DNA of 64,000 bases from Squalus acanthias (taxonomy: Eukaryota). The stretch lies in NCBI GenBank assembly GCA_030390025.1, contig CM059432.1:50408001-50472000 (forward strand). Direction: 5' to 3'. Numbering within the stretch: position 1 is the first letter of the stretch; each line of letters starts with the position of its first letter. Both the position numbers and the translations under genes were made by a program. Positions 18,123 through 64,000 of this stretch are shown piece by piece. The notes under the pieces are model-generated. The model was not told where the DNA came from and ran no database searches. It saw only the letters and a program-made list of their open reading frames with translations.

Positions 18123-19353
18123 ATGGGAACCATTTATTTCCTTTCCTCCTGGACATCAGATTCGGACGAAGACCAGCCGTGGCAGCAGCAGAACCCGGAA
18201 CAACAGCAGCACCAACAGCAGCAGCAACAACAGGAGCGCCAACCTGCTGCTCACCCACCTGAAGCTGCACAGGCCAGAAGGCGCCAGTGCAGGGAAGCAC
18301 TTCGCCGCAGGAGATACCCCCAAAACAGGGTTTACAGACAGAGGATGAGCTACCTCAACATGAGTGAGCAGCAGTGCCAAAGGAGGCTGAGACTTTCGCG
18401 AGAGGTAGTCGGTGACATCTGCACAATGCTGAAGCAAGACCTGGAGCCCAGAGGAGTGGGTCGTAAAAGTCACCACCGCACTCAACTTTTTTGCTTCAGG
18501 CTCATTCCAGGAATCAACAGCAGACATCAGCGGCGTCTCCCAGGCGGCTGCACACACTTGCATCACACAGGTAACCGATGCCCTCTTTGCAAAGGCGCAC
18601 AATTACATCAACTTCTCCAAGGATCAAGCAAGTATAACCGCGTGTGCGGTTGGATTTGCTAATCTGGCAGGCTTTCCAAGGGTGCAGGGCGTCGTAGACT
18701 GCACACATGTGGCCCTTAAGGCACCCCATCACAATCCAGGTATTTTTGTCAACCGCAAGGGCTTCCACTCCCTCAACGTGCAGCTGGTGTGTAACCACAA
18801 TAAGGAAATTTTGCATGTTTGCGCCAAGTACCCTGGCAGTTGCCATGACTCCTTCATCCTGCGGCAGTCTAGTGTGCCTCCGCTCTTCAGTCCGCCAAAC
18901 CAACTTTGCGGATGGTTACTTGGAGACAAGGGCTATCCCCTGAAGACGTGGCTAATGACGCCGTTCAGGAGGCCATCCAACGAAGCTGAGGAGAGCTCCA
19001 ACTCCAGCCACATTTTGACCAGATCCATTATCGAGCAAACCATCGGCTTGCTGAAGATGCGATTCAGATGCCTTGATAGATCAGGTGGAGCCCTGCAGTA
19101 CTCAGCAGCCAGGGTCTCCAGAATCGTCGTGGTCTGCTGTGCACTTCACAACATGGCACAGCATCATGACTTGCAGCTGCCTGAGGTACAAGTGGCTCAT
19201 CGCATAACCTCCTCAGATGAGGAGGAGGAGGAGGAGGAGGAGGAGAGTGAGAACAAAGACCTTGCGGAGGCGCATCAACCAGTGGCAGAAGCACACGAGA
19301 ACATTGCTGCCCGGGATGCAAGGGATGCACTCATCTTGGCCAGATTTGCTTAG
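18123..19353 (+). pseudogene. Harbinger DDE transposase (DDE_Tnp_4/HARBI1-like) with a single frameshift near 18462
   Basis: [37 protein letters not shown]. 18463-19353 is one frame. PolyQ N-terminus and polyE C-terminus. Confidence 0.92.
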
Positions 19354-19611: not shown

Positions 19612-21783
19612 CTACTTGTGCTTTATCTTCCTCTTACGTGTGCTCCTACATGGTGCTTCCCCTGTGGCTTCAGCAGATGTGGAGGCCCCTTGCTCACTTT
19701 CATGCTGCTCCTGCCTCGACACCTTTGGTGGGCATCCTCTGGGGATGCGAGCCTGTGAGGGCTCGCCAACAGTCTGCTGCTCCTGCAGCTGTGCAGGGGC
19801 TGAGACGCCCATCTCAGTTGGGTGAGGACTCTGGTGGGGCTCTGACCGAGGGCTCCGCAGTGACAAGGGAGTGTGAGCGCTTGGAGAGGAGCCCCCACTT
19901 CCTTGTTGTCTGCCACCAAAATCCCTCTCATGGGTCAGGCCCACTTCAGAGCTAGCAAGTGGCATGACAGCACCTTGCTGCACTTCAGGGGGGCCATGAG
20001 GACCCGTTTCTGCACTGGCAGTCCTACTCCAGAGGACTTCTATGAAGCTCTGGTTTCTCTGCTCAATAGCTGACCATCGCTCCTCCAGAGATATCAGTCT
20101 ATTCTGAACAATGACCATGTTTTCAAGACCCTGGTGACTTAGCTCCTCCATGGCCGTAGCCATCCTCTCCTCTACCGTAGCCATCCTTACCACGGAGGTA
20201 GCCATCCTTTCCACGGAGGTTGCCATCCTTTCCATGGTGATGCGTTCATGTGCCAATGCCTCCACAAAGGCTCTGCTCATGTTAGCGATGGACTCCTCCA
20301 TCCTCTCCACACTCGCAGTGACCCTGGAGACAAAACCTGCAGAGACTCCTGCACCTGTTCCTGGAGTTCCATCACCGCTCTCCTTCTGGATGGACCCGGA
20401 GGCACAGGGTCGACATGCAGCTGAGCCGAGCTGGGAGCGCCCTGCGGCTTCCGACGAGGATTCTCCACTGCTGTCCCTGTCTCCACCATCTGCTGATGCT
20501 CACTTGTGATCTGTGATACACCAGGTGACAATTCTACTCTATGTCCCAAAGGTCCCACCGAGGTGTGAGTGTCTGCGCTGGTGCTGGGTGCGCTTAATTC
20601 TGGTGATGCTGCACCCTCAGAGGTTGCAGCTTCCTCTGAGGAGTCTTCTGGCTCAGGCTGTTCCCCCTGGACAGTGGGGAGGGGGGCTGTCGATGGTCCT
20701 GTGGGGGAGTAAAGGAAAGAGTTAGACATGTGAGATAAACGTTGCATGCACATGGAATTGTGCAGATCATCATAAGTCAATCTGTTAGAGCATCAGAATC
20801 AATATCAGTCACTCATGCTATGTAAATGAGAGCGATGCAAAACTATTCTGTCACCAGCTTGCTCTGATGCGCCCGTCTGTCCGTCCCCCACTTGCGCATC
20901 CTCCTCCACTCCCACGATCTCGCTGGCCGCCTTCTCAGCGCTGGTGAGCTGGGCTATTGAGGGTGGGCCTCCTCCTGTCTTCGCCCTTTCCCTCTTATTG
21001 TGGGCTCTCTTTTCCTGCAATGAGGGACACAAGTGGAGTTTGAGTGAGAATGAAGGAGTGAGTGTAGAGAATCCATAGCATAGATGCTTAGAAGGACACA
21101 AAGATGGAGTGAGGTCCCAAGACCAAGGGCCCTCCCTGTGTGTTGTAAGTTGTTGTCATAGCATAACAGTGATAGGGAGTGTGAAGGCAGCATAGTCGAA
21201 TAGTTAAGTGACTGTGTACATAGAGAGAGAGGGAATGGTTAAGGGTGCAGGGATGCAAGGATCGCGTGGGATGTGGAGGAGGAGGTTGACAATGCAGAGT
21301 GCTGTTGATGAGAGGCGATGGGGATCAGATTGAGGGTCATGGTGATGCCATACTCACTTTTCCTGTGCGGAGAAGGTCATTAAACTTCTTTCTGCACTGC
21401 AGCCAGATTCTGGTGCACATTGATATTGCACTGACCTCCTGTGCCACTTGCAGCCACACAGCTTTGGTCTGCTGGGGAGGTTTTTCCTCCCAGAGGAAGG
21501 AACATAAGAACATAAGAAATAGGAGCAGGAGTAGGCCAATCGGCCCCTCGAGCCTGCTCCGCCATTCAATAAGATCATGGCTGATCTGATCCTAACCGCC
21601 AATCTACTATCTATCACAGAACCATCTCCTGCATCTAACAGAATTGCACACACGAAATAGGAGCAGAATCAGGCTACACGGTCCCTGGGCCCGCTCCTCT
21701 TTCTGAGCTCTGGCTCCCTCCACCAGAGCATGGAGGGAGTCCTCACCAAAGCGGGGTGCGGCCTTGGACCTTGAAGTTGACAT
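19612..21783 (-). pseudogene. Harbinger Myb/SANT-like DNA-binding protein, 3 exons (21783-21358, 21014-20855, 20698-19612)
   Basis: MSTSRSKAAPRFGEDSLHALV...WLQVAQEVS...WLQCRKKFNDLLRTGK|GTGAGT; TTGCAG|EKRAHNKRERAKTGGGP; basic C-terminus RSTRKRKIKHK. Disrupted by CR1 tails in exon 1 and a frameshift near 20320. Confidence 0.85.
21499..21695 (-). mobile_element. Two short CR1 3'-tail insertions inside Myb exon 1
   Basis: AACATAAGAACATAAGAAATAGGAGCAGG plus a second AAATAGGAGCAG tail. Confidence 0.8.
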
Positions 21784-42954: not shown

Positions 42955-42991
42955 AGTTAACGTTTCAGGTCGATGACCTTTCGTCAGAACT
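42955..42991 (-). ncRNA. Minimal type-I hammerhead ribozyme motif (PLE family A)
   Basis: AGUU-CUGACGA-A-AGGUC-AUC-GACCU-GAAA-CG-UU-AACU; palindromic AACGUU at stem III. Confidence 0.82.
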
Positions 42992-43291: not shown

Positions 43292-44782
43292 TTATGATCT
43301 GAAATTGTTGAACTCTATGTTGAGTCCAGAAGGCTGTAAAGTGCCTAATCGAAAGATGACGTGCTGTTCCTCGAGCTTATGCTGAGCTTCCATGGAACAA
43401 TGCAAGAGGCCGAGGACGGTGAGGTCTGAGTGGGAGTGGAGCGGTGAATTAAAGTGACGGGCGACCGGAAGCTCGGGGTCCCCCTTACGGACTGAACGGA
43501 GGTGTTCCGCAAAGCAGTCACCCAATCTGCGTTTGGTCTCCCCAATGTAGAGGAGACCACATCGTGAGCAGCGAATACTGTATACTAAATTGCAAGAAGT
43601 ACAAGTAAATCGCTGTTTCACCTGGAAGGAGTGTTTGGGGCCCTGGACAGTGGGAAGGGGGGAGGTATAAGTGCATGTGTTGCATCTCCTGCGCTTGCAC
43701 GGGAAGGTGCCGGGCGAAGGGCAAGGTGTGTTGGGGGTGATAGAGGAGTGGACTAGGGTGTCGCAGAGGGAGTGGTCCCTACGGAATGCTGAAAGGGGAG
43801 GTGAGGGGAAGATGCGTTTGGTGGTGGGATCACCCTGGAGGTGGCGGAAATGGCGGAGGATGATCCGTTGAATGTGGAGGCTGGTGGGGTGAAAGGTGAG
43901 GACAAGGGGAACTCTATCGTGGTTCCGGAAGGGAGGGGCAAGGGTGAGGGCAGAAGTGCGGGAGATATAACGGACACGGTCAAGGGCCGTGTCAACCACT
44001 GTAGAGGGGAATCCTCGGTTGAGGAAAAAGGAAGACATGTCGGAAGCACTGGTATGGAAGGTGGCATCGTCAGAGCAGATGCGGCGGAGACGGAGAAACT
44101 GGGAGAATGGAATAGAGTCCTTACAGGAGGCGGGGTGGAAGGAAGTATAGTCCAGGTAGCTGTGGGAGTCAGTGGGCTTGTAGTGAATGTTTGTCAATAA
44201 CCTATCCCCAGAGATGGAGACGGAGAAGTTGAGGAAGGGAAGGGAAGAGTCGGAGATGGACCATGTGAAGGTGAGGGAAGGGTGGAAATTGGAAGCAAAG
44301 TGGATGAAATTATCTAGTTCAGGGCGAGAGCAGGAAACGGCACTGATACAGTCATCAATGTACCGGAAAAAGAGGTGAGGGAGGGGACACGAGTAGGACT
44401 GGAACACAGAGTGTTCCACATATCCCACGAAGAGGCAGGCATAGCTAGGACCCATGCGGGTTCCCATAGCAACACCTTTGATTTGGAGGAAGTAAATGGA
44501 GTCAAAGGAGAAGTTGTTCAATGTGAGAACAAGTTCAGCCAGGCGGAGGAGGGTGGTGGTGGATGGGGACTGGTTGGGCCTCTGTTCAAGGAATAGGCGG
44601 AGCACCCTCAGGCCATCCTGGTAGGGGATGGAGGTGTAGAGGGATTGGACGTCCATAGTGAAAAGGAGGCGGTTGGGGCCAGGAAACTGGAAACTGTTAA
44701 AGTGGCGGAGGGCGTCGGAAGAGACTGGACAAGTGGAGAAAAAATAGAGTCGAGATAGGAAGAGATAAGTTCCGTGGGGCAA
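43292..44782 (-). CDS. PLE RT + Cys linker + GIY-YIG endonuclease (open frame; N-terminus disrupted)
   Basis: MDVQSLYTSIP, GVAMGTRMGPSYA, FRYIDD, CKRRRCNTC, VYSIRCSRCGLLYIGET, PSGLN. Confidence 0.9.
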   Translation of the reverse strand: MPHGTYLFLSRLYFFSTCPVSSDALRHFNSFQFPGPNRLLFTMDVQSLYTSIPYQDGLRVLRLFLEQRPNQSPSTTTLLRLAELVLTLNNFSFDSIYFLQIKGVAMGTRMGPSYACLFVGYVEHSVFQSYSCPLPHLFFRYIDDCISAVSCSRPELDNFIHFASNFHPSLTFTWSISDSSLPFLNFSVSISGDRLLTNIHYKPTDSHSYLDYTSFHPASCKDSIPFSQFLRLRRICSDDATFHTSASDMSSFFLNRGFPSTVVDTALDRVRYISRTSALTLAPPFRNHDRVPLVLTFHPTSLHIQRIILRHFRHLQGDPTTKRIFPSPPLSAFRRDHSLCDTLVHSSITPNTPCPSPGTFPCKRRRCNTCTYTSPLPTVQGPKHSFQVKQRFTCTSCNLVYSIRCSRCGLLYIGETKRRLGDCFAEHLRSVRKGDPELPVARHFNSPLHSHSDLTVLGLLHCSMEAQHKLEEQHVIFRLGTLQPSGLNIEFNNFRS

Positions 44783-44916
44783 GAACAGGCTGAAATGATG
44801 GGTCTACCAGGGCAGTCCTGTTTGTGGATCTTGGGAAGGAGGTAGAAGCGGGTTGTGCGGGGTTGGGGAACTATGAGGTTGGCGGTTGTGGGGGGAAGAT
44901 CTCCAGAGGAGATGAG

Positions 44917-50401: not shown

Positions 50402-50832
50402 GGGCAACACGGTGGCATAGTGGTTAGCACTGGTACCTCACAGCGCCAGAGACCTGGGTTCGAATCTGACCTCGGGTGACTGTCTGTGTGGAGTTTGCAC
50501 ATTCTCCCCGTGTCTGCGTGGGTTTCCTCCGGGTGCTCCGGTTTCCTCCCACAGTCCAAAAACGTGTGGGTTAGGTTGATTTGGCTATGATAAATTGACC
50601 CTTAGTGTTAGGGGGGATTAAATATGTGGGGTTATGGGGATAGGATGGGATATGTTAGGGGGAATTAAATACGTGGGGTTACGGGGGTAGGGTGGGATAT
50701 GTGTACTGTGGGGATTAAAGCAGGGACAGGGTACTGGATTTGGATGATCAGCCATGATCGTATTGAATGGCGGAGCAGGCTCGACGGGCCGAATGGCCTA
50801 CTCCTGCTCCTAGATTCTATGTTTCTATGTTT
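50402..50832 (+). mobile_element. HE1/V-SINE-like tRNA-derived SINE with CR1-derived tail
   Basis: A-box TGGCATAGTGG, B-box GGTTCGAATC, V-like core TGTGGAGTTTGCACATTCTCCCCGTGTCTGCGTGGGTTTCCTCCGGGTGCTCCGGTTTCCTCCCAC, CR1 3' UTR. Confidence 0.9.
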
Positions 50833-51783: not shown

Positions 51784-51943
51784 TGTGCTGCCCATTGGCT
51801 ATTATTGCCATGTCCTAGTCATTTAACTGAACCCAGGTGGCTCTATATTCAGTGTCACCATACAGCCATATGGAGCAACGATCCAATCAATCAAATTACT
51901 TTGTGCTATGGCAATCGACTATGGCTCAATGACCATCAGAAAG

Positions 51944-52140
51944 GAGAAGTCGCACAACACCAGGTTATAGTCCAACAGTTTTATTTGAAATCACGAGCTT
52001 TCGGAGCTCTGCTCCTTCCTGACGAAGGAGCAGCGCTCCGAAAGCTCGTGATTTCAAATAAAACTGTTGGACTGTAACCTGGTGTTGTGCGACTTCTCAT
52101 TTTTGTCCACCCCAGTCCAACACCAGCATCTCCACATCAT
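51944..52140. mobile_element. Palindromic PLE family B mini-insertion (inverted 3' ends, hammerhead core 52019-52051)
   Basis: Minus arm 51944-52017, plus arm 52018-52140; TSD CATCAGAAAGG / CATGAGAAAGG. Confidence 0.88.
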
Positions 52141-53646: not shown

Positions 53647-53779
53647 TATTGTTACTATTTGAAGAAGAGCAGAGGAATTCTTCCTGGTTTCTTGGCCAAT
53701 ATTTATCCATAAACCAATATTACTACAAAAGTGAGACGTCGCACAACACCAGGTTATAGTCCAACAGTTTTATTTGAAA

Positions 53780-53817
53780 TCACAAGCTTTCGGAGTTGCT
53801 GCCCCTTCGTCAGGTGA
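53780..53817 (-). ncRNA. Hammerhead motif (family B)
   Basis: UCAC-CUGACGA-A-GGGGC-AGCA-ACUCC-GAAA-GC-UU-GUGA (one stem II mismatch). Confidence 0.75.
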
Positions 53818-55484
53818 AGTAAAGGAATACGAATCGACAAAGCATATATAGACAGAGAACAATGCATGTGTAGCGTACAATGTCAGATGACTACATTTAA
53901 TCCTCCTGACTGCCTTTCGTCACACCTCGGCAGAGAAACAATCAGGTCAGCCAGGAAGGCACCACATCAAAGACATAGCACGATACAACTGAGACAATGA
54001 GGTCACAGGGGGTCTAATGTGTCTGTATGGAAAACCATAAACATTAAAATTTTTAATTTTTTTTACTGGAAATCATATCTGTGAACAAGCCAACGACGAC
54101 TCGAGTCTGGATGACTCTACGTCATGTAGCGTGACATGAACCCTAGATCCCGGTTGAGGCCATCCTCATGAGTGCGGAACTTGGCTATCAGTTTCTGCTC
54201 GATGATTTTGCGTTGTCGTGTGTCTCGAAGGCCGCCTTGGAGAACACTTACCCGCAGATCCGAGGCTGAATGTCCTTGACTGCTGAAGTGTTCCCCGACT
54301 GGGAGGGAACACTCCTGCCTGGTGATTGTTGCGTGGTGTCCGTTCATACGTTGTCTCAGTGTCTGCATGGTCTCGCCGATGTACCATGCTCTGGGGCATC
54401 CTTTCCTGCAACGAATCAGGTAGACAACATTGGCCAAGTCACATGAGTATGTACCATGTACCTGGTGGGTAGTGTCCTCACGTGTGATGATGGTATCTGT
54501 GTTGATGATCTGGCATGTCTTGCAGAGGTTGCCGTGGCAGGGTTGTGTGGTGTCGTGGTCGCTGTTATCCTGAAAGCTGGGTAATTTTCTGCGAACTATG
54601 GTACTTCTGAGGTTAGGCGGCTGTTTGAAGGCGAGTAGTGGAGGCGTGGGGATGGCCTTAGCGAGGTGTTCGTCGTCATCGATGACATGTTGAAGGCTGC
54701 GAAGAACATGGCGTAGTTTCTCCACTCCGGGGAAGTACTGGACGACGTAGGGTACCCTGTTGGTTGTGTCCCATGTTCGCCTTCTGAGGAGGTCTATGCG
54801 ATTTTTCGCTGTGGCCCGTCGGAACTGTCGATCGATGAGTCGAGCGTCATATCCCGTTCTTACGAGGGCGTTTTTCAGCGTCCGTAGGTGCCCATCGCAT
54901 TCCTCCTCGTCTGAGCAGATCCTGTGTATTCTCGGGGCTTGTCCATAGGGGATGGCTTCTTTAATGTGGTTAGGGTGGAAGCTGGAGAAGTGGAGCAACC
55001 CAGTCGGGGAACACTTCAGCAGTCAAGGACATTCAGCCTCGGATCTGCGGGTAAGCGTTCTCCAAGGCGGCCTTCGAGACACACGACAACGCAAAATCAT
55101 CGAGCAGAAACTGATAGCCAAGTTCCGCACTCATGAGGACGGCCTCAACCGGGATCTAGGGTTCATGTCACGCTACATGACGTAGAGTCATCCAGACTCG
55201 AGTCGTCGTTGGCTTGTTCACAGATATGATTTCCAGTAAAAAAATGTAAAAATTTTAAAGTTTATGGTTTTCCATACAGACACATTAGACCCCCTGTGAC
55301 CTCATTGTCTCAGTTGTATCTTGCTATGTCTTTGATGTGGTGCCTTCCTGGCTGACCTGATTGTTTCTCTGCCGAAGTGTGACGAAAGGCAGTCAGGAGG
55401 ATTAAATGTAGTCGTCTGATATTGTACGCTACACATGCATTGTTCTCTGTCTATATATGCTTTGTCGATTCGTATTCCTTTACT

Positions 55485-55522
55485 TCACCTGACGAAGGGG
55501 CAGCAGCTCCGAAAGCTTGTTA
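55485..55522 (+). ncRNA. Hammerhead motif (family B)
   Basis: UCAC-CUGACGA-A-GGGGC-AGCA-GCUCC-GAAA-GC-UU-GUUA (stem I mismatch). Confidence 0.72.
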
Positions 55523-57269
55523 TTTCAAATAAAACTGTTGGACTATAACCTGGTGTTGTGCGACTTCTCACTTTTGTCCACCCCAGTCCAACACCGGCAT
55601 CTCCGCATCATGGCCAATATTACTACAACAGATTACCTGGTCAATATATCGTTACTGTTTGTGGGACCTTGTTGTGTCCAAATTGGCTGCTGTTTTTCAC
55701 TACATTACAATAGTTACTACACTTCAATTGTCTGTAAAGCACTTTGGGATTTCCTGAGGTTGTGAAAGGCGCTATATAAATGCAAGGTCTTTCATTCTTG
55801 GTATTTGATTAGTTTGGCTGAGAACAGCTTTCCGTTGACTAGAAGCATTCAGTGAATGATCAATAATCACTCTCAAATCCTTTCCTTTGTGACCAGACAC
55901 CTTTCATTGTGTGCACATGGTTGCTGTTTCCAGTTTCAACATGCATTACAATTACATTAAAATTATCTTGTCTTATTGAATCCTGGTTATCCCATTTCTA
56001 TTTGTCATCTGTCCCAGACCTTAGTATCATCAGCAAATTGTATCAAGCCTTGGTTTCTCATGCACTTGAAATATAGTATAATTAATTAAAAAAACAAAAA
56101 AGTTTTGAAGCATTTACTACGGCAGCAAGCTCTCAGGTAAATGTTAGAGTGAAAATGGTTTTAAATATCGCTGATTCCAACACCACCTGATCCCTAACAC
56201 GCATACACACCTCCACATAGAGAGACAATCTTAGTCTATTTTCATCAAAGCAAATGGCAAATACAAAATGCATTGCCTGTGATGTATTTACAAATAAATT
56301 GTATCTGCAAGATTTCCACAAGGACTATTTGCAGGAAATAAAAACATTCTAGAAATAGCCTTGCGTGTCAGAAGTGTTTTGAAAATCAGTCCCAGGACCT
56401 CAAAACAAACAACTTGTGTCATCTCATTGGGCTACCTTGGCAAAATATCCAGAAATCAATTTACATACTGCTAAACAAAGCAGCATGTGTTCAGTTTAAA
56501 ATAATGTTACTTCAGGGCATTTGGCAATATGTCAGAAATATAAAACGACTTGAACTGCCCTTATAGGAATCCTGTCAAATAGGACTTTATCATTCATACT
56601 GCTCTGATCCACAAACAAGCACAGCTAGTGGAAACACTTTAAGAGTAGCACAAGTCTTTTTGTAAAGATCAAACATCTTGCCAATAGCTAGAAAGGTGTG
56701 AAATTAGCCACAACTTTACAAAGGCCTATAACAATTCTTATAAATAATGAGTCAGGGATGAAGTGAGCAAAGGGGAAAAGGTTCAAAATGGGATTTTGTT
56801 ATTTTATCTACCATTCAACTGCAGTTATAGTTGCATGCACTGTTGACTAATGGTCAATTAACCAAATAATCTTTGCACTGTAGCTGACCTGAAATGTCTT
56901 ACAGTATTATTAGGTGAAATATGCTCCCTTCTCTACACTATAAATTTTCACTGCATTTGCTTGTTAGGGAAAATGGCACTAGGCTAAATCTAAAGTCACT
57001 TTTCTTTTGCAGATTCAGATCATAAACATAAATCATATAAAAGTGCTCCTATTGATTAAAAGCAAGGGGCAATGTCACTGTGTTGGGAAGTTCTCAAGCG
57101 GGCTCAAACCTGCTAGGAAAACTTGTTCTGCAGCACCATCACAGCAAGTTGTGTTGCATCAGACTCTCTGTATTGCTTTTCTATTGCATTTTTCACAGTT
57201 TTTATCTGGCAATCCTTATAACCATGTATATCAAGCACAAGTAACCCGATAGTTTCCTGGAGGCACCCA

Positions 57270-57689: not shown

Positions 57690-59420
57690 CAAGAAAATAT
57701 GTTAGATGGAGATCAACATGGGGAAGTGTGAAGTCATCCACTTTGGACCTGAGTAAGACACTGAAATATTTTCTGAATGAGAGAGACTAGGAGCTGTGGA
57801 GGAGCAAAGGGATTTATTTGTCCATGTACACATAACTAAACGTTACTGCACAAGTACAAAAAGTAATCAAAAAGGCTACTGGAATGTTGACTTTTTCTTC
57901 AGGGGGGGTGGAATATAAAAGTAAGGAAGTGATGCTTCAGTTGTACCGAGCTTTGATGAAATCCCACCTGGAGTTCTGCATTTAGTTTGGGCACCGAACC
58001 TCAAGAAAGAGAAACTAGCCTTGGAAGGGGTACAGCACAGATTCACCAGAAATTTACCAGGGCTTAAAGGGTTAAATTATGAGAACAGGTTGCATAAATT
58101 TTATTCAGTTTAAAAAGTCGAGGGGTGATCTAATCAGGGTGTTGAAAATGATAACGGATTTGATAGGGTACATACAGAGAAGTTATTCCCTCTGGCGAGG
58201 AAATCCAGAACAAGAGGGCACAATCTTAAAATTAGAGCTAAGTTATTTAGGAGTGAAATGAGGAAACACTTCTTCTCATAAAGAGCAGTGGAAATCACTC
58301 CCCAAAAGGCAATGGATGCTGAGTCAATTGACATTTTCAAGACCTGGATTGACAGATTGTCGTTAGGTCAGGATATCAAAGGATATGAATAAATGCAGGC
58401 AAATTAAGGCTTGCGGACGACACCAAATTGGGAGATGTAGTTAATACAGAGGAGGACTGTGACAAAATGCAGGACAACATTAATAAATTTGCAAAACGGG
58501 TGTGTAATTGGCAAATGAATTTCAATATAGATAAGTGTGAGGTAGTACATTTTGGTAGGAAGAATAAGGAGGCCACATAGTCCTTGGAAAATAAGTGTCT
58601 AAATGGGGTAGAGGAGCAGAAAGAATAGGGGGTCCAGATACACATATTACTAAAAGCAGCGATGCATGTTAATAAGGCCATAAAAAAGCAAACAACGCAC
58701 TGTGGTTCATTTCTAGAGGGATAGAATTGAAAAGCAGAGAAATTATGTTAAACTTGTATAGGACCTCGGTTAGACAACACTTGGAGTACTATGAACAGTT
58801 CTGGCCTTCATATTGAATAAAGGATATAGAGGCACTGGAGAAAGTGCAAAAATGATTTAATAGGCATAACCTCTCAGTTCTGGTATTGTTCTATCAGGAA
58901 AGATTGAACAGGCTGGGGCTTTTTCTCTAGAAAACAGAAGACTGAGGGGTGACCTGATAGAGGTCTTTAAGATTATGAAAGGGTTTGATAGGGTAGACGT
59001 ACAGAAGATGTTTCCACTTGCAGGGGAGACCAGAACTAGGGACCATACATATAAGGTAGTCCCTAAGGAATTCAGGAGAAATTTCTTTGCCCAGAGATTG
59101 TTTAGAATGTGGAACACTCTACCACAAAGAGTAGTGGAGGCAACTAGCATACATGCATTTAAGGACAAGCTAGATAAACACATGAGGGAGAAAGTAATAG
59201 AGGGATATGCTGATAGGGTTAGATGAAGAAGGGTGGGAAAAGGCTCATGTAGTGCATGAACACTGGCGTGGATCTGTTGGGCCGAATAGCCTGTTTCTAT
59301 GCTGTAAATACTATGTAATACAATGTAAAGGCGAGTAAATGGAGTTGAGGTACAGATCAGCTAAGATCTAATTGAATGGCGGCACAGGCTCAAGAGGCTG
59401 AATGGCCTACTCCTGTTCCT
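57690..59420 (+). mobile_element. Tandem CR1 3' fragments (57690-58400, 58410-59328, 59330-59420)
   Basis: ADDTKLG, RRLRGDLIEVFK, RRNFFAQRL and 3' UTR tails. Confidence 0.85.
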
Positions 59421-59432
59421 ATGTTTACATTG

Positions 59433-60128
59433 CAGACCATGCAGACACTGCGACAACGTATGAACGGACACCGCGCAACAATCGCCAGGCAGGAGTGTTA
59501 CCTCCCAGTCGGGGAACACTTCAGCAGTCAAGGACATTCAGCCTCCGATCTTCGGGTAAGCGTTCTCCAAGACGGCCTTCGAGACACACGACAACGCAAA
59601 ATCATCGAGCAGAAACTGATAGCCAAGTTCCGCACCCATGAGGACGGCCTCAACCGGGATCTTGGGTTCATGTCACGCCATATGTAACCCCACCTGACGT
59701 AGAGTCATCCAGACTCGAGTCGTTGTTGGCTTGTTCACAGATGTGATTTCCAGTAAAAAAAATTAAAAAGTTTAAAGTTTTTGGTTTTCCATACAGACTG
59801 CAGCCTCTGCCACATTTGACCCCTTGTGACCCCACCTCATTGTCTTTGTTGTATTTTGCTATCGTCTTTGATGTAATGTCTTCCTGACTGACCTGGTTGG
59901 ATTTGATTGCCGTGATTGTCTCTCTGCCGAGGTGTGATAAAGGGCAGTCAGAAAGATTAACTGTAGTCGTCTGGCATTGTTCTCTGCACAGGCATTGTTC
60001 TCTGACTATATATGCTGTGCCCATTTGTATTTCTTCACTTCACCTGACGAAGGAGCAGCCGCTCCGAAAGCTTGTGATTTCAAATTAAAGCTGTTGGACT
60101 ATAACCTGGTGTTGTGCGACTTCTCACT
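59433..60128 (+). mobile_element. PLE family B 3' fragment
   Basis: TMQTLRQRMNGH..GLNRDLGFMSRHM*; 13-bp TSD TATGTTTACATTG (59420-59432; 60129-60141). Confidence 0.92.
60040..60077 (+). ncRNA. Minimal hammerhead ribozyme motif, fully paired copy
   Basis: UCAC-CUGACGA-A-GGAGC-AGCC-GCUCC-GAAA-GC-UU-GUGA; predicted cleavage after 60073. Confidence 0.83.
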
Positions 60129-61139
60129 TATGTTTACATTGATCTTGTACATAATATAATACCATGCATTCAGGCTCATTAACACAAAGTTTATGGCTTG
60201 TTCCACTGTTAGTATTGCAATGTATAGATTCCACATTAATTGATCTAAACAGACAGTGTTGTGTTGTTCCCCTGCTTCATCACACACTTAAACTACAAAA
60301 GACTGTGCGCTTCTAAGCAAATGATTGTAGCTCATTTAAATTTTTATCACATCGAGTACAGTAAAAGTCAAACTCATTATCAGAATGCTTTTTGTAAACC
60401 AGCCACAACTCCCTTGCCAAAAATATCCTTTCGGAGCAATCACTTTTCATGTTCCAGACCTACTCAGATTACAATTAGTGCTTTTATCAAACAGCAAGAC
60501 ATTTCCTTGGGATTTTACACAGTTGGGAAAATTTGACTTAAGTCACGAGGCATCTGGAAATTCAGAATACAATACTGCAGAGATTCATTTCCTGTTAATT
60601 AGAGATACTGGATGCTTGTTAATGAGGACCAGGGCCTAATTTCAATGTCAAAATTCTTTGACCTTTACACTTTAACTGGTTTAGAAATGGAGGAAGGTAC
60701 AATGGTGTTCTCATTGTTGCGATTAATTTGTTGTAATGCAGATTGTGTCTGCTGCTGATGATTTATAATTTATAAGCTTGCCTGAAACACCCACTGAGAT
60801 AAATAAATTCCCAGTGAAATTAATAAATTCTCTTTCAAGGATAAGCAGGCCAATACACTGCAAATAACCTCGAATATAGTTGCACCTTTTGGTAACACCT
60901 TGGTATGAAATCGTATTGTGTAGTGTTAAGATGCAAAGACTTTTTTAAACCGATTCATGCCTCCATTAACTTAACAGCCACTGGAATACCATACAAAGGA
61001 ATAAAGAAAGAAACAGAAAAAAACAAAAGGGCAAACAGCACTAAGGAATAATGATGGGACAGGGTTGAACTGTTTATATACAAATGTTCGAAGTGTTAGG
61101 AATAAAATTAGGGAACTGAAAGCACTCATCATTAATGAT

Positions 61140-61856: not shown

Positions 61857-64000
61857 GGGGAAAAATTCGGTTGGTTAGCGCCTCCCGTTAGCGACTCCAG
61901 CGGGCGCTAACGGGGCGCTAACAACTTACCGCCCGAGCGCGGCGATTTTAGCGCCGCCCGCAAAATTGTCCTGGCGCTTTGCAATGGTGTTAAACACGAC
62001 CGCCACGATCTCCTGTGCCCAGAGATCATGACGTTATCCAAGCGTGCAACGCCCCGGTAGCGCCCCGGACCGGAAATTGATTCTTGCCTTAGCGCCTGCC
62101 GCTAGAAACGACAGGTAGAGGGGGACGTTTTGCAGTCAGCAAGGAGCTGGGGGAGTGCTATTTAAAGGCGTGTGCTTCCTGCTTTTTCTTATCGGCAAAA
62201 TATTTGGCATACACAGGTTGAGAGGGAGAGAGACGTCTGGAGAGATTTAACGCTGTCCTACAAGAAGTTTTGTTCTTGAGCAACACTTTTCAGGTTCCTA
62301 TTTCTCTGAGCTTCATATTTACCACATTTACAAGATTAAATGGGGGCTCTACTAACTCAGGGCGTCGTCCTCCAGCTTCACCTTCGGAGGCAGCAGAGGC
62401 GCAGAGAGTGGCAAACGTGGCCAGAGGGAGGAGGGCCAACAGGGCTCTGCACAGGAGACCTTACCCCCCCCCCGGGTTTTCCGGGAGCAATTCTCCTACA
62501 TTAATTTGTCCGAGGAGCAGTGTTTCCGAAGGCTGCGCTTCAGCAAGGAGGTGGTCACTGAGCTCTGCCACCTCCTGAAACCAGATCTGCAGCCTCAGTT
62601 CTGGAGCAGGACGTCTCTGCCGGTGGCAGTGAAGGTGACGGTGGCTCTGAATTTTTATGTCAGCGGCTCCTTCCAGGCTTTTACTGGGGACATCGCGAAT
62701 ATCTCCCAGTTCGCTGTCCATTGCTGCATCCGGGAGGTCACAAATGCTCTCTAGTACATCTCATTCCCCGTGACCCGAGACAAACAGCGTGAACGCGCAT
62801 GTGGCTTCGCTAGGATAGCGGGCTTCCCCATGGTTCAGGGCGCCATTGACTGCACGCATGTGGCATTGCGGGCACTACATGAAAATGCAGAGGTGTTCCA
62901 CAACTGCAAAGGCTTCCACTCTCTGAACGTGCAGTTGGTGTGTGACCACAGACAGCGCATCCTCGCTGTCAATGCCCGCTATCCTGGCAGCAGCCACGAT
63001 GCTTTCATCCTGCGCCAGACTGATGTCCCAGAGCTCTTCCAACCACCGCGTCAACCTCGTGGTTGGCTCCTCGGGGACAAGGGTTATCCACTCTGCACCT
63101 GGCTGACATCGCTCCGTAACCCCAACATTCCTGCTGAGCTCGTATACAATGAGAGCCATAGTGCCACCAGGAACCTCATTGAGCAGACGATCGGTGTCTT
63201 GAAGCAATGGTTCCGGTGTCTGGACCACTCTGGAGGAGCCCTGCAGTACTCTCCCGAGCGAGTCTCACTTTTCATTGTTGTGTGCTGCATGCTTCACAAC
63301 CTCGCAATTATGAGGACGCAGCCATTGCCACCAGGGATTGGTGCACCACCTCAGGAGAAGGAAGAGGGAGAGGAGGAGGCGGAGGAGGAGAATGAAGAGG
63401 AGGATAAGCAGCACCAATGTGGGAGGGAGGTGCACAATGTTGCCTCTGCAAGGGCCGTCCGTGAGCACCTGATAAGACGAATGACAGAGAAGATGGCTTC
63501 TGGGATGAACAAGCACATCATCGCAAGCATCCCGCAGCCCCTATCGCTGGGCAAAGCTCCAATGAGTCAAATGAGCAAAGTTGTAAAGTTCCAATAAAAA
63601 TTTTATTTATCTGACAAACTGTGTCTTATTTATTCAGCACAAACAATAACAAACAGACACAACAATTCATTAACTAACAAAACTCGTTCTGACCACATCA
63701 AGATAAGCATAAACAGAGTGAACAAGATATTAAGATGAACATCAAACTTTGCCACAAACATTCCCCCCATTTATTGGATAATTTTTACTTTTCGGCCTTC
63801 GAGGGTGATCTCCATCCCCTGCGCACTTCCCCGCCCCCCCTCCCCCTTCCCTACTGCTCCTCCGTAATGTGGCCCCAATAGCTGCAGCAAGGCTGGTGGA
63901 AGGCTGCTGAATGTCAGATCCTGAGACTACAGATGCCCTTGAAGGACACCCTCGACCAGCTCTGGGCCTGGAGGGCCCGGCTGCAGACTGCACCAACTCT
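61857..64000 (+). mobile_element. Second Harbinger transposon, truncated by the window end
   Basis: Left TIR GGGGAAAAATTCGG, transposase, and a convergent Myb-gene C-terminus on minus at ~63742-64000. Confidence 0.9.
62340..63597 (+). pseudogene. Harbinger transposase with frameshifts and an in-frame stop at 62752-62754
   Basis: [52 protein letters not shown]. Confidence 0.92.

What the first reader, a model, noticed from the sequence alone, without database searches (positions are those of the whole stretch)
59689..59729. Second, core-variant hammerhead-like hairpin right after the PLE-B stop codon
Seen: CCCAC-CUGACGU-A-GAGUC-AUCCA-GACUC-GAGU-CG-UU-GUUGG. This has exact hammerhead spacing but A9 to U and GAAA to GAGU substitutions. 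The same substitutions occur at 54090-54124 and 55178-55212, so they are family-level rather than random decay. GAGU(C) creates a perfect palindrome, GACUCGAGUC, which lets GACUC pair upstream, downstream or intermolecularly. Inference: either a fixed inactivated ribozyme repurposed as an RT-recognition or dimerisation signal, or an undescribed catalytic variant. Each unit therefore has two hammerhead-like modules ~350 nt apart.
Basis: partly seen in the sequence, partly recalled or inferred. Interest (0 to 1): 0.75.

Follow-up and report, generated by a model that had tools for sequence, protein, structure and literature searches.

The report
Captured dead ribozyme in Penelope retrotransposon
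The hairpin is real and repeated thousands of times, but it is most likely a broken self-cutting RNA motif that one jumping-gene family picked up from another, and since the family's youngest branches have deleted it and kept spreading, it is likely a passenger rather than a new catalytic RNA or signal.

Summary
The motif is real and fixed: 5,146 of 5,479 genomic stem-II matches continue AGTC, none AAAC. It is not a copy of the element's own hammerhead. It heads an ~85-nt piece homologous to the hammerhead-plus-tail of another Penelope-like family (proteins 32% identical). Contigs of another organism show the same ORF end without it. The donor's stem-I arm is missing, and U9, G14 and U15.1 hit positions known to cripple hammerheads. 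Proposed pairs show no compensatory change in 69 copies. Later subfamilies delete it stepwise; two, with intact ~920-aa ORFs and 7,379 and 10,197 matches, lack the hairpin, and the larger also lacks the palindrome, while the terminal hammerhead keeps its core and covaries. The two other window copies are arms of one insertion and lack C3. Verdict: likely dead, dispensable relic of inter-family capture. Against: a 24-nt block stays unchanged through four subfamilies. Cleavage untested.

The parts
59433..60128 (+). 5'-truncated copy of a Neptune-type Penelope-like element (family B, subfamily T2): end of the GIY-YIG coding region, pLTR/3' UTR, terminal hammerhead and tail
   Evidence: full-length relative L121 has an RVT_1 hit, E 1.3e-8, and tandem pLTRs
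59420..59432 (+). left copy of a 13-nt target-site duplication
   Evidence: identical to 60129-60141
60129..60141 (+). right copy of the 13-nt target-site duplication
59685..59687 (+). stop codon (TAA) of the family-B ORF remnant
59694..59753 (+). relic of the captured family-A 3' end (broken hammerhead plus tail; ~85 nt in subfamily T1, shortened by 22 nt here)
   Evidence: local alignment scores 44-71 against shuffle maxima 26-30; empty site in another organism
59702..59716 (+). stem II hairpin of the relic (5 bp, 5-nt loop)
   Evidence: lost in subfamilies T4 and T5
59712..59721 (.). 10-nt perfect palindrome made by the AA-to-GT change; possible template-switch footprint (inferred)
   Evidence: kept in T1-T4, lost in T5
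59700..59702 (+). in-frame TAG created by U9; it is the actual ORF stop in subfamily T3
   Evidence: ORFs ending MSRYMT
60040..60077 (+). the element's own canonical minimal type I hammerhead (palindromic AAGCUU stem III; predicted cut after 60073)
53725..55577 (.). one inverted-repeat insertion of subfamily T3; its two arms hold the relic at 54090-54125 (-) and 55177-55212 (+), both lacking C3
42907..42990 (-). family-A terminal hammerhead and tail, the donor-type sequence, downstream of the family-A ORF at 43292-44803 (-)

Best explanation
The segment is homologous to the hammerhead-plus-tail end of a different Penelope-like family and was likely captured just behind the stop codon of an ancestral family-B element, where it is predicted to be catalytically dead and likely rode along as a dispensable passenger. 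Shown: homology, fixed core changes, an empty site in another organism, stepwise deletion in later subfamilies, loss in subfamilies that keep full ORFs. Inferred steps: (1) a short family-A end, a common product of that family, joined the B pLTR at short microhomologies (C at the 5' junction, CCAGC at the 3' junction), leaving the donor's 5' stem-I arm behind; (2) AA became GT, most simply in one template-switch event that perfected a quasi-palindrome, with a 3-nt duplication and A9U; (3) because it lies in the pLTR, every copy reverse-transcribed from the tail downstream of the terminal hammerhead inherits it; (4) deletions of 22, 12, 5 and 11 nt were fixed in successive masters at no visible cost. 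Any RNA processing is left to the element's own terminal hammerhead.
For: Homology to family A: scores 44-71 against shuffle maxima 26-30 for 5 of 5 donors, and the tail alone beats 1000 of 1000 shuffles for each. Families A and B share 32% protein identity. 13 of 27 A-type loci lack upstream A sequence and start at about the hammerhead. Empty site: 18 and 26 contigs of organism C run from the B ORF end straight into the sequence that follows the relic, and summed depth falls from over 100,000 to 357-660 across it. No canonical ancestor found: 0 hits; 3 unrelated hits against 16 for the control; of 30 loci fetched for A9, 1 is a B copy, and it still has GAGT. Organism G shows no A9 or A14 at 1% or more. 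A14 and A15.1 changes reduce activity over 100-fold and A9 10-100-fold (PMC4075628, citing earlier work); the one active U15.1 variant has A16.1 (PMC3088659). No two-sided change in 10 proposed pairs over 69 copies, against two-sided changes in stems I and II of the terminal hammerhead, core intact in 171 of 193 parsed copies. Stem II lost in T4 (7,379 matches; 921-aa frames in L122-L124) and T5 (10,197 matches; 919-aa frame in L334; 150 of 150 best matches at least 99% identical). Tree without the relic: T4 and the T5 copy L111 nest in different T3 branches, and T4 is youngest.
Against: A 24-nt block holding the palindrome is unchanged in the T1a, T2, T3 and T4 majority sequences while the mid-UTR changes heavily (93 summed substitutions over 242 nt against 7 over 83 nt, both inflated by alignment around gaps). 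It is not clearly slower than ORF four-fold sites (4 of 44, T1a to T4). The duplicated register happens to give a GUC triplet and 4 of 5 possible stem-I pairs with host sequence. The empty form was not found in this genome and rests on short contig ends from one run; precise deletion in organism C is not excluded. The exact donor subfamily was not found. The tree shows no support values and its sample is pattern-biased. No cleavage or RNA-end data were available.
Confidence: 0.85

Rival explanations
1. Selected disarmament (a sub-case of the best explanation, differing in why the core broke): the captured hammerhead could cut, a cut here would separate the ORF from the downstream RT-start tail, and only a master with a knocked-out core could amplify.
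For: Changes cluster in the 13-nt core (9, 14, 15.1, duplication) while stem II stayed paired. With the duplication and an intact GAAA the motif would read as a GUC-cleaving hammerhead with 4 of 5 stem-I pairs (sequence, inferred). Selection against an inserted hammerhead yields core substitutions in phage MS2 (PMC4075628). No canonical-core copy ever amplified detectably.
Against: The donor's 5' stem-I arm was lost at capture, so it may never have cut. One templated event explains AA to GT. The tail also differs from the donors at about 20% of sites, so core enrichment cannot be shown without the true donor. No intermediate was found.
Confidence: 0.2
2. Exapted structural signal: the hairpin or palindrome serves RT recognition or RNA dimerisation in the subfamilies that keep it.
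For: The 24-nt block with the palindrome is invariant in T1-T4 majorities; palindrome exact in 45 of 47 T4 copies; self-dimer of the 28-mer predicted at -19.5 kcal/mol against -6.6 per monomer (no control); relic shared with organism G.
Against: T5, the most numerous and very young subfamily, has neither hairpin nor palindrome in 30 of 30 loci. The palindrome is broken in both pLTRs of the full-length copy L121 and in its neighbours L094 and L096. Organism C's abundant relative lacks the segment. Folding z-scores are only -1.3 to -2.1. The RT site of the anole PLE lies downstream of its hammerhead (PMC11167929).
Confidence: 0.08
3. Undescribed catalytic hammerhead variant with U9, G14 and U15.1.
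For: GUC triplet and hammerhead-like spacing in the family sequence; rare natural core variants are active (PMC3088659); the anole PLE hammerhead needs protein help (PMC11167929), so in vitro rules may not be complete.
Against: Three core changes at once; U-U at 15.1/16.1 in 68 of 69 copies; stem III no longer palindromic, so the dimer route is closed; C-U mismatch in stem I in 69 of 69; no covariation. G to T at the first stem-I pair in 52% of summed depth in organism G. C3 is deleted in T3. Hammerhead-shaped fold has probability 1e-5 to 1e-4 against 0.11 for the terminal motif (but only 3e-4 for the canonical A-type motif, so this is weak).
Confidence: 0.03
4. Internal duplication of family B's own hammerhead, later decayed.
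For: Both motifs share CACCTGACG; a 13-nt near-direct repeat lies at 59683-59695 and 59825-59837.
Against: Stem II, stem III and the following 45-nt tail match family A, not the B terminal motif; the empty site matches the limits of the A-derived piece, not the direct repeat.
Confidence: 0.02

Closest known systems
Minimal type I hammerheads (min-HHR) in the pLTRs of metazoan Penelope-like elements (Cervera and de la Pena 2014, PMC4209133; parts 1-2 of 4 of the text read, supplements not seen)
   Same: Ancestry and layout: CUGA box, extra base between 9 and 10.1, G10.1-C11.1, location in a pLTR. The terminal motif at 60040-60077 and the family-A motif at 42956-42990 are ordinary members.
   Different: The relic has U9, G14, U15.1, no palindromic stem III and no native stem I; it is a second, foreign module upstream of the element's own; the paper's reported core variant is U3-A8, a compensated pair.
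Neptune/Nematis-type EN+ Penelope-like elements (as defined in Craig et al. 2021, PMC8557442; passages read)
   Same: Single RT plus GIY-YIG ORF of about 920 aa, CX2-5CxxC linker and cysteines within the GIY-YIG motif, tandem pLTRs, inverted 5'-truncated arms, short tail.
   Different: pLTR carries a captured end of another PLE family. Neptune versus Nematis was not resolved; no reference tree was built.
Poseidon element of the green anole, PAc (Frangieh et al. 2024, PMC11167929; parts 1-2 of 4 read)
   Same: Hammerhead near the pLTR-ORF junction; insertions end at two points a short distance downstream of it.
   Different: Different PLE clade; one hammerhead. Its RT-binding and initiation sites map downstream of the hammerhead, not to a hairpin after the stop codon.
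Natural hammerhead core variants and inactive 'cryptic mutant' hammerheads in repeats (Perreault et al. 2011, PMC3088659; passages read, figures S6-S7 not seen)
   Same: Hammerhead-like sequence with core departures inside a repeated element.
   Different: Active variants there are mostly single or compensated changes (U15.1-A16.1); this one has three uncompensated changes, and its origin and erasure can be traced.
Quasi-palindrome (template-switch) mutation (PMC3820800, PMC8604942; search listing and start of abstract only)
   Same: Two adjacent changes that turn an imperfect inverted repeat into a perfect one.
   Different: Inferred from sequence only; two chance substitutions or selection could give the same result.

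Membership tests
Active hammerhead ribozyme (min-HHR) | Box C3 U4 G5 A6 N7 G8 A9 | tested here: not met
   Position 9 is T in 67 and C in 2 of 69 copies; C3 is deleted in T3-T5. Counting the following A as A9 gives an insertion before it instead, also non-canonical.
Active hammerhead ribozyme (min-HHR) | Box G12 A13 A14 A15.1 | tested here: not met
   GAGT in 5,146 of 5,479 matches, GAAAC in 0
Active hammerhead ribozyme (min-HHR) | A15.1-U16.1 pair and palindromic stem III for dimer formation | tested here: not met
   T/T in 68 of 69 copies; donor ACGT palindrome is altered
Active hammerhead ribozyme (min-HHR) | Stem II closed by G10.1-C11.1 | tested here: met
   5 bp in this copy and in T1-T3; lost in T4 and T5
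Active hammerhead ribozyme (min-HHR) | Stem I supported by covariation | tested here: not met
   4 of 5 pairs possible, fixed C-U mismatch, 0 two-sided changes in 69 copies (29 distinct; low power); first pair broken in 52% of depth in organism G
Active hammerhead ribozyme (min-HHR) | Self-cleavage after NUH | not testable with these tools
   Only assembled contigs were offered, which cannot show RNA ends
Active hammerhead ribozyme (min-HHR) | Match to an Rfam hammerhead model | tested here: inconclusive
   No hammerhead family at E up to 1 anywhere in the window, including the canonical motifs, so the test has no power here
Family-A PLE 3' end (homology) | Sequence homology over hammerhead and tail | tested here: met
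   5 of 5 donors above all 1000 shuffles
EN+ Penelope-like element (host element) | Single ORF with RT and C-terminal GIY-YIG | tested here: met
   RVT_1 35.2 bits, above cut-off, in L121; GIY-YIG read from the alignment; Pfam GIY-YIG hit only weak, and only for family A (E 0.12)
EN+ Penelope-like element (host element) | pLTR direct repeats with a hammerhead; inverted truncated arms | tested here: met
   L121, L122, L124, L125 have the canonical motif on both sides of the ORF; inverted arms
Neptune/Nematis clade | CX2-5CxxC linker upstream of GIY-YIG | tested here: met
   Present in families A and B; definition from PMC8557442
Neptune/Nematis clade | Placement in an RT phylogeny with reference elements | not tested
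   No reference PLE proteins were fetched

The most novel reading that the evidence does not exclude
One Penelope family captured a working hammerhead module from another, the module re-formed a GUC-cleaving register with host sequence, and selection then knocked out its core because a cut there severs the ORF from the RT-start tail. The relic series would be a natural experiment showing that hammerhead modules move between PLE families and that minimal hammerheads do cut PLE RNA in vivo.
Probability: 0.15. Interest if true: 0.55.

Novelty: new member of a known kind. Interest (0 to 1): 0.25.

Why it matters
As a motif it matters little: a likely dead piece of a known ribozyme inside a known kind of retrotransposon. 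Its value is as a record. It documents a hammerhead-bearing end passing between two PLE families only 32% identical in protein, which bears on the suggestion that hammerheads are gained, lost or parasitise PLEs (PMC8557442). It also gives an internal control: in one pLTR a foreign hammerhead erodes while the native one keeps its core and covaries, which argues that the native motif is under selection. It is a caution too: a core variant fixed in thousands of copies can be a hitchhiker.

Tried and rejected
Rfam scan: no hammerhead hit even for canonical motifs; uninformative. First Pfam scan of the two window ORF pieces at E 0.001 found nothing; the full-length ORF was needed. Searches for a canonical-core ancestor or intermediate found none; one search gave 9 hits against 24 for the control, 7 from an unrelated repeat and 2 (L309, L311) A-like ends. 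Searches for the empty site in this genome found only mutated relic copies or unrelated loci. I first took the 13-nt direct repeat around the segment as the insertion limits; the empty site in organism C rejected that. I first labelled the host Poseidon-type; the linker motif rejected that. Single-strand folding does not separate the relic from chance or from the canonical A motif, which forms the same rod. Expression and cleavage could not be read: all 24 runs were contigs, and 'RNA' was mostly a guess; runs X19, X21 and X24 gave too little cover to use beyond showing a T5-like end. Trans-cleavage of the relic by a family-A hammerhead was considered and set aside as needing two G-U pairs in a 3-bp stem and a reciprocal pairing that is absent (reasoning only). 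Literature searches found no report of this segment; most subscription papers and the supplements of PMC4209133 and PMC3088659 were not seen.

Full report
Observation. The motif stands at 59688-59729, right after the TAA at 59685-59687 of a 5'-truncated retroelement copy (59433-60128) flanked by a 13-nt target-site duplication. It has a CUGACG box with U at position 9, a 5-bp stem II, GAGU in place of GAAA and a 10-nt palindrome at 59712-59721. A canonical minimal hammerhead starts 350 nt downstream. The 16-nt stem-II pattern has 5,479 exact matches in the 3.7-Gb genome against 4 for the control; 5,146 continue AGTC and none AAAC. So the changes are fixed at family level. The two other window copies are the arms of a single inverted-repeat insertion and have lost C3 and the proposed stem-I arm through a 12-nt deletion, so they add one observation, of a different state.

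Host element. Of 14 regions fetched around long open frames, L121-L124 have 921-aa frames and L121, L122, L124 and L125 carry the canonical hammerhead on both sides of the ORF. L121 hits RVT_1 above the curated cut-off. A CX2-5CxxC linker precedes the GIY-YIG motif in this family (B) and in the second PLE family of the window (A, ORF 43292-44803); the two proteins are 32% identical. By the definitions in PMC8557442 (passages) both are Neptune/Nematis-type. The genome looks shark-like from its repeats; that is a recalled resemblance, not a test.

Origin of the segment. In the longest subfamily (T1) the motif is followed by a 45-nt tail. Motif plus tail align with the terminal hammerhead and tail of family A: scores 44-71 against shuffle maxima of 26-30 for 5 of 5 donors tried, and the tail alone beats all 1000 shuffles in each case. 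Short family-A insertions that start at about the hammerhead are common: 13 of 27 A-type loci among the 30 fetched (3 rows were not counted: one unrelated, one B copy, one with a deleted tail). Contigs of organism C run from the same ORF end directly into the sequence that follows the relic in T1 (18 contigs, 26). Summed depth there falls from over 100,000 on the ORF end to 357-660 on the relic; depth is not copy number. The junctions are a shared C and a shared CCAGC. One low-depth contig of organism C has the relic, already with the variant core, and organism G has it abundantly with no A9 or A14 at 1% or more. The capture and the core changes therefore predate these organisms' split from this genome (inferred). 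The empty form was not found in this genome, and a precise deletion in organism C cannot be excluded, though it would not explain the homology to family A.

Fate of the segment. From 248 anchored hits, 197 after removing repeats of the same site, 149 copies were kept (one arm per locus, terminal hammerhead within the locus, at least 150 nt upstream, classifiable). They form a deletion series: T1 full; T2 (this copy) minus 22 nt of tail; T3 minus 12 nt including the TAA, the stem-I arm and C3, so that the TAG made by U9 becomes the stop; T4 minus a further 5 nt, which destroys stem II; T5 minus 11 nt and more, which removes stem II and the palindrome. Exact-match counts are 2,908 for the intact box plus stem arm, 7,379 for T4 and 10,197 for T5. 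The patterns differ in length and inverted arms count twice, so these are rough. A tree built without the relic places T3 within T2, T4 within one T3 branch and the T5 copy L111 within another; the second T5 copy sits on a long branch. Median nearest-neighbour distances are 0.037 (T1a), 0.018 (T2), 0.021 (T3) and 0.005 (T4) (midpoint root, no support values, pattern-biased sample). T4 has 921-aa frames (L122-L124). For T5 all 150 best protein matches are at least 99% identical, 4 lie in 919-aa frames, and 30 of 30 loci examined, including the 919-aa L334, lack hairpin and palindrome. The hairpin was thus lost twice in lineages that went on to amplify more than those that kept it.

Contrast with the native hammerhead. 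Over 69 T1/T2 copies (29 distinct) none of 10 proposed relic pairs shows a two-sided change, stem I has a fixed C-U mismatch and 15.1/16.1 is U-U in 68. Over 193 parsed of 197 copies of all types, the terminal motif keeps its core in 171, varies freely at N7 and loop 2, and shows C-G to U-A changes in stem I (47 copies) and stem II (7 copies). These are two lineage events, not independent counts, and the relic set is less diverged, so its test has lower power.

Could it cut? A14 and A15.1 substitutions lower hammerhead activity over 100-fold and A9 10-100-fold (PMC4075628, part 1 of 2 read, citing earlier mutagenesis). The natural U15.1 variant that is active has A16.1 (PMC3088659, passages). 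PLE minimal hammerheads need a palindromic stem III to dimerise and are weak even then (PMC4209133, parts 1-2 of 4). The relic fails all of these. Cleavage itself was not testable.

Could it be a signal? In the anole PLE the protein binds and starts reverse transcription downstream of the hammerhead, matching genomic insertion ends (PMC11167929, parts 1-2 of 4). Family-B copies likewise end shortly after the terminal hammerhead, about 400 nt from the relic. The palindrome has a simpler source: the donor's GACTC-GAAAC is a quasi-palindrome, and AA to GT is the change that perfects it, the pattern attributed to template switching (PMC3820800, PMC8604942; listing and abstract start only; inferred here). 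The main result against neutrality is that a 24-nt block with the palindrome is unchanged in the T1a-T4 majority sequences while the mid-UTR changes fast. The ORF baseline is low too (21 of 318 sites, 4 of 44 four-fold sites), so the block is not shown to be constrained, and T5 erases it.

Mechanism, committed. Capture of a family-A end behind the B stop codon (homology and empty site shown, event inferred); loss of catalytic ability at or soon after capture (predicted); amplification by hitchhiking in the pLTR (inferred from position); stepwise loss (shown). Confidence 0.85. Whether the core broke by drift or was selected out is open (0.2 for selection).

Novelty. Minimal hammerheads in PLE pLTRs are known since 2014. 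Four searches found no description of this captured segment; the bioRxiv preprint 10.64898/2026.07.22.740005 (part 1 of 5 read) concerns retrozymes derived from pLTRs, and the part read does not mention it. The scan's own index had no look-alike by sequence; word and place look-ups listed other PLE hammerhead notes, none of which changed the reading. The finding is a well-resolved piece of transposon history, not a new ribozyme or signal: interest 0.25.

Noticed in passing
window 51937-52105: Fold-back of two family-B 3' ends (82-nt arms, 5 nt apart, I5) scores as microRNA family mir-1597 (53.1 bits, below the gathering score of 93): a false miRNA-like hit from a PLE hairpin.
   Followed up: partly
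family-B pLTR, window 59754-60038: The mid-UTR changes several times faster between subfamilies than the ORF end; possibly a promoter under pressure to diverge.
   Followed up: partly
window 59683-59695 and 59825-59837: A 13-nt near-direct repeat of the stop-codon region recurs 142 nt downstream; it does not match the limits of the captured piece and is unexplained.
   Followed up: partly
window 59700-59702; L121, L122, L334: Each deletion subfamily keeps a stop at nearly the same place (TAA in T1/T2, TAG from the relic in T3, TGA in T4 and T5), so the ORF end constrains which deletions survive.
   Followed up: partly
window 59355-59432: The copy sits right at the end of a stretch that resembles a CR1-type LINE 3' end (84% like 50746-50812; CR1 label recalled).
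   Followed up: no
L257-L276, L319-L348 (subfamily T5): Very young, abundant subfamily with intact 919-aa frames; its terminal hammerhead has a compensatory C-G to U-A change in stem I and varied N7 and loop 2.
   Followed up: partly
window 18433-19353 (+), 19612-20792 (-), 62755-63597 (+): ORFs that look like Harbinger/PIF-type transposase and a facing partner ORF (resemblance recalled, not tested).
   Followed up: no
window 37929 (-) and 3908 (-): Further short PLE ends with canonical hammerheads: one family-A type, one family-B type.
   Followed up: no
L260:1858-3018: A long tandem array of about 27-nt units, open in several frames, beside a T5 copy.
   Followed up: no
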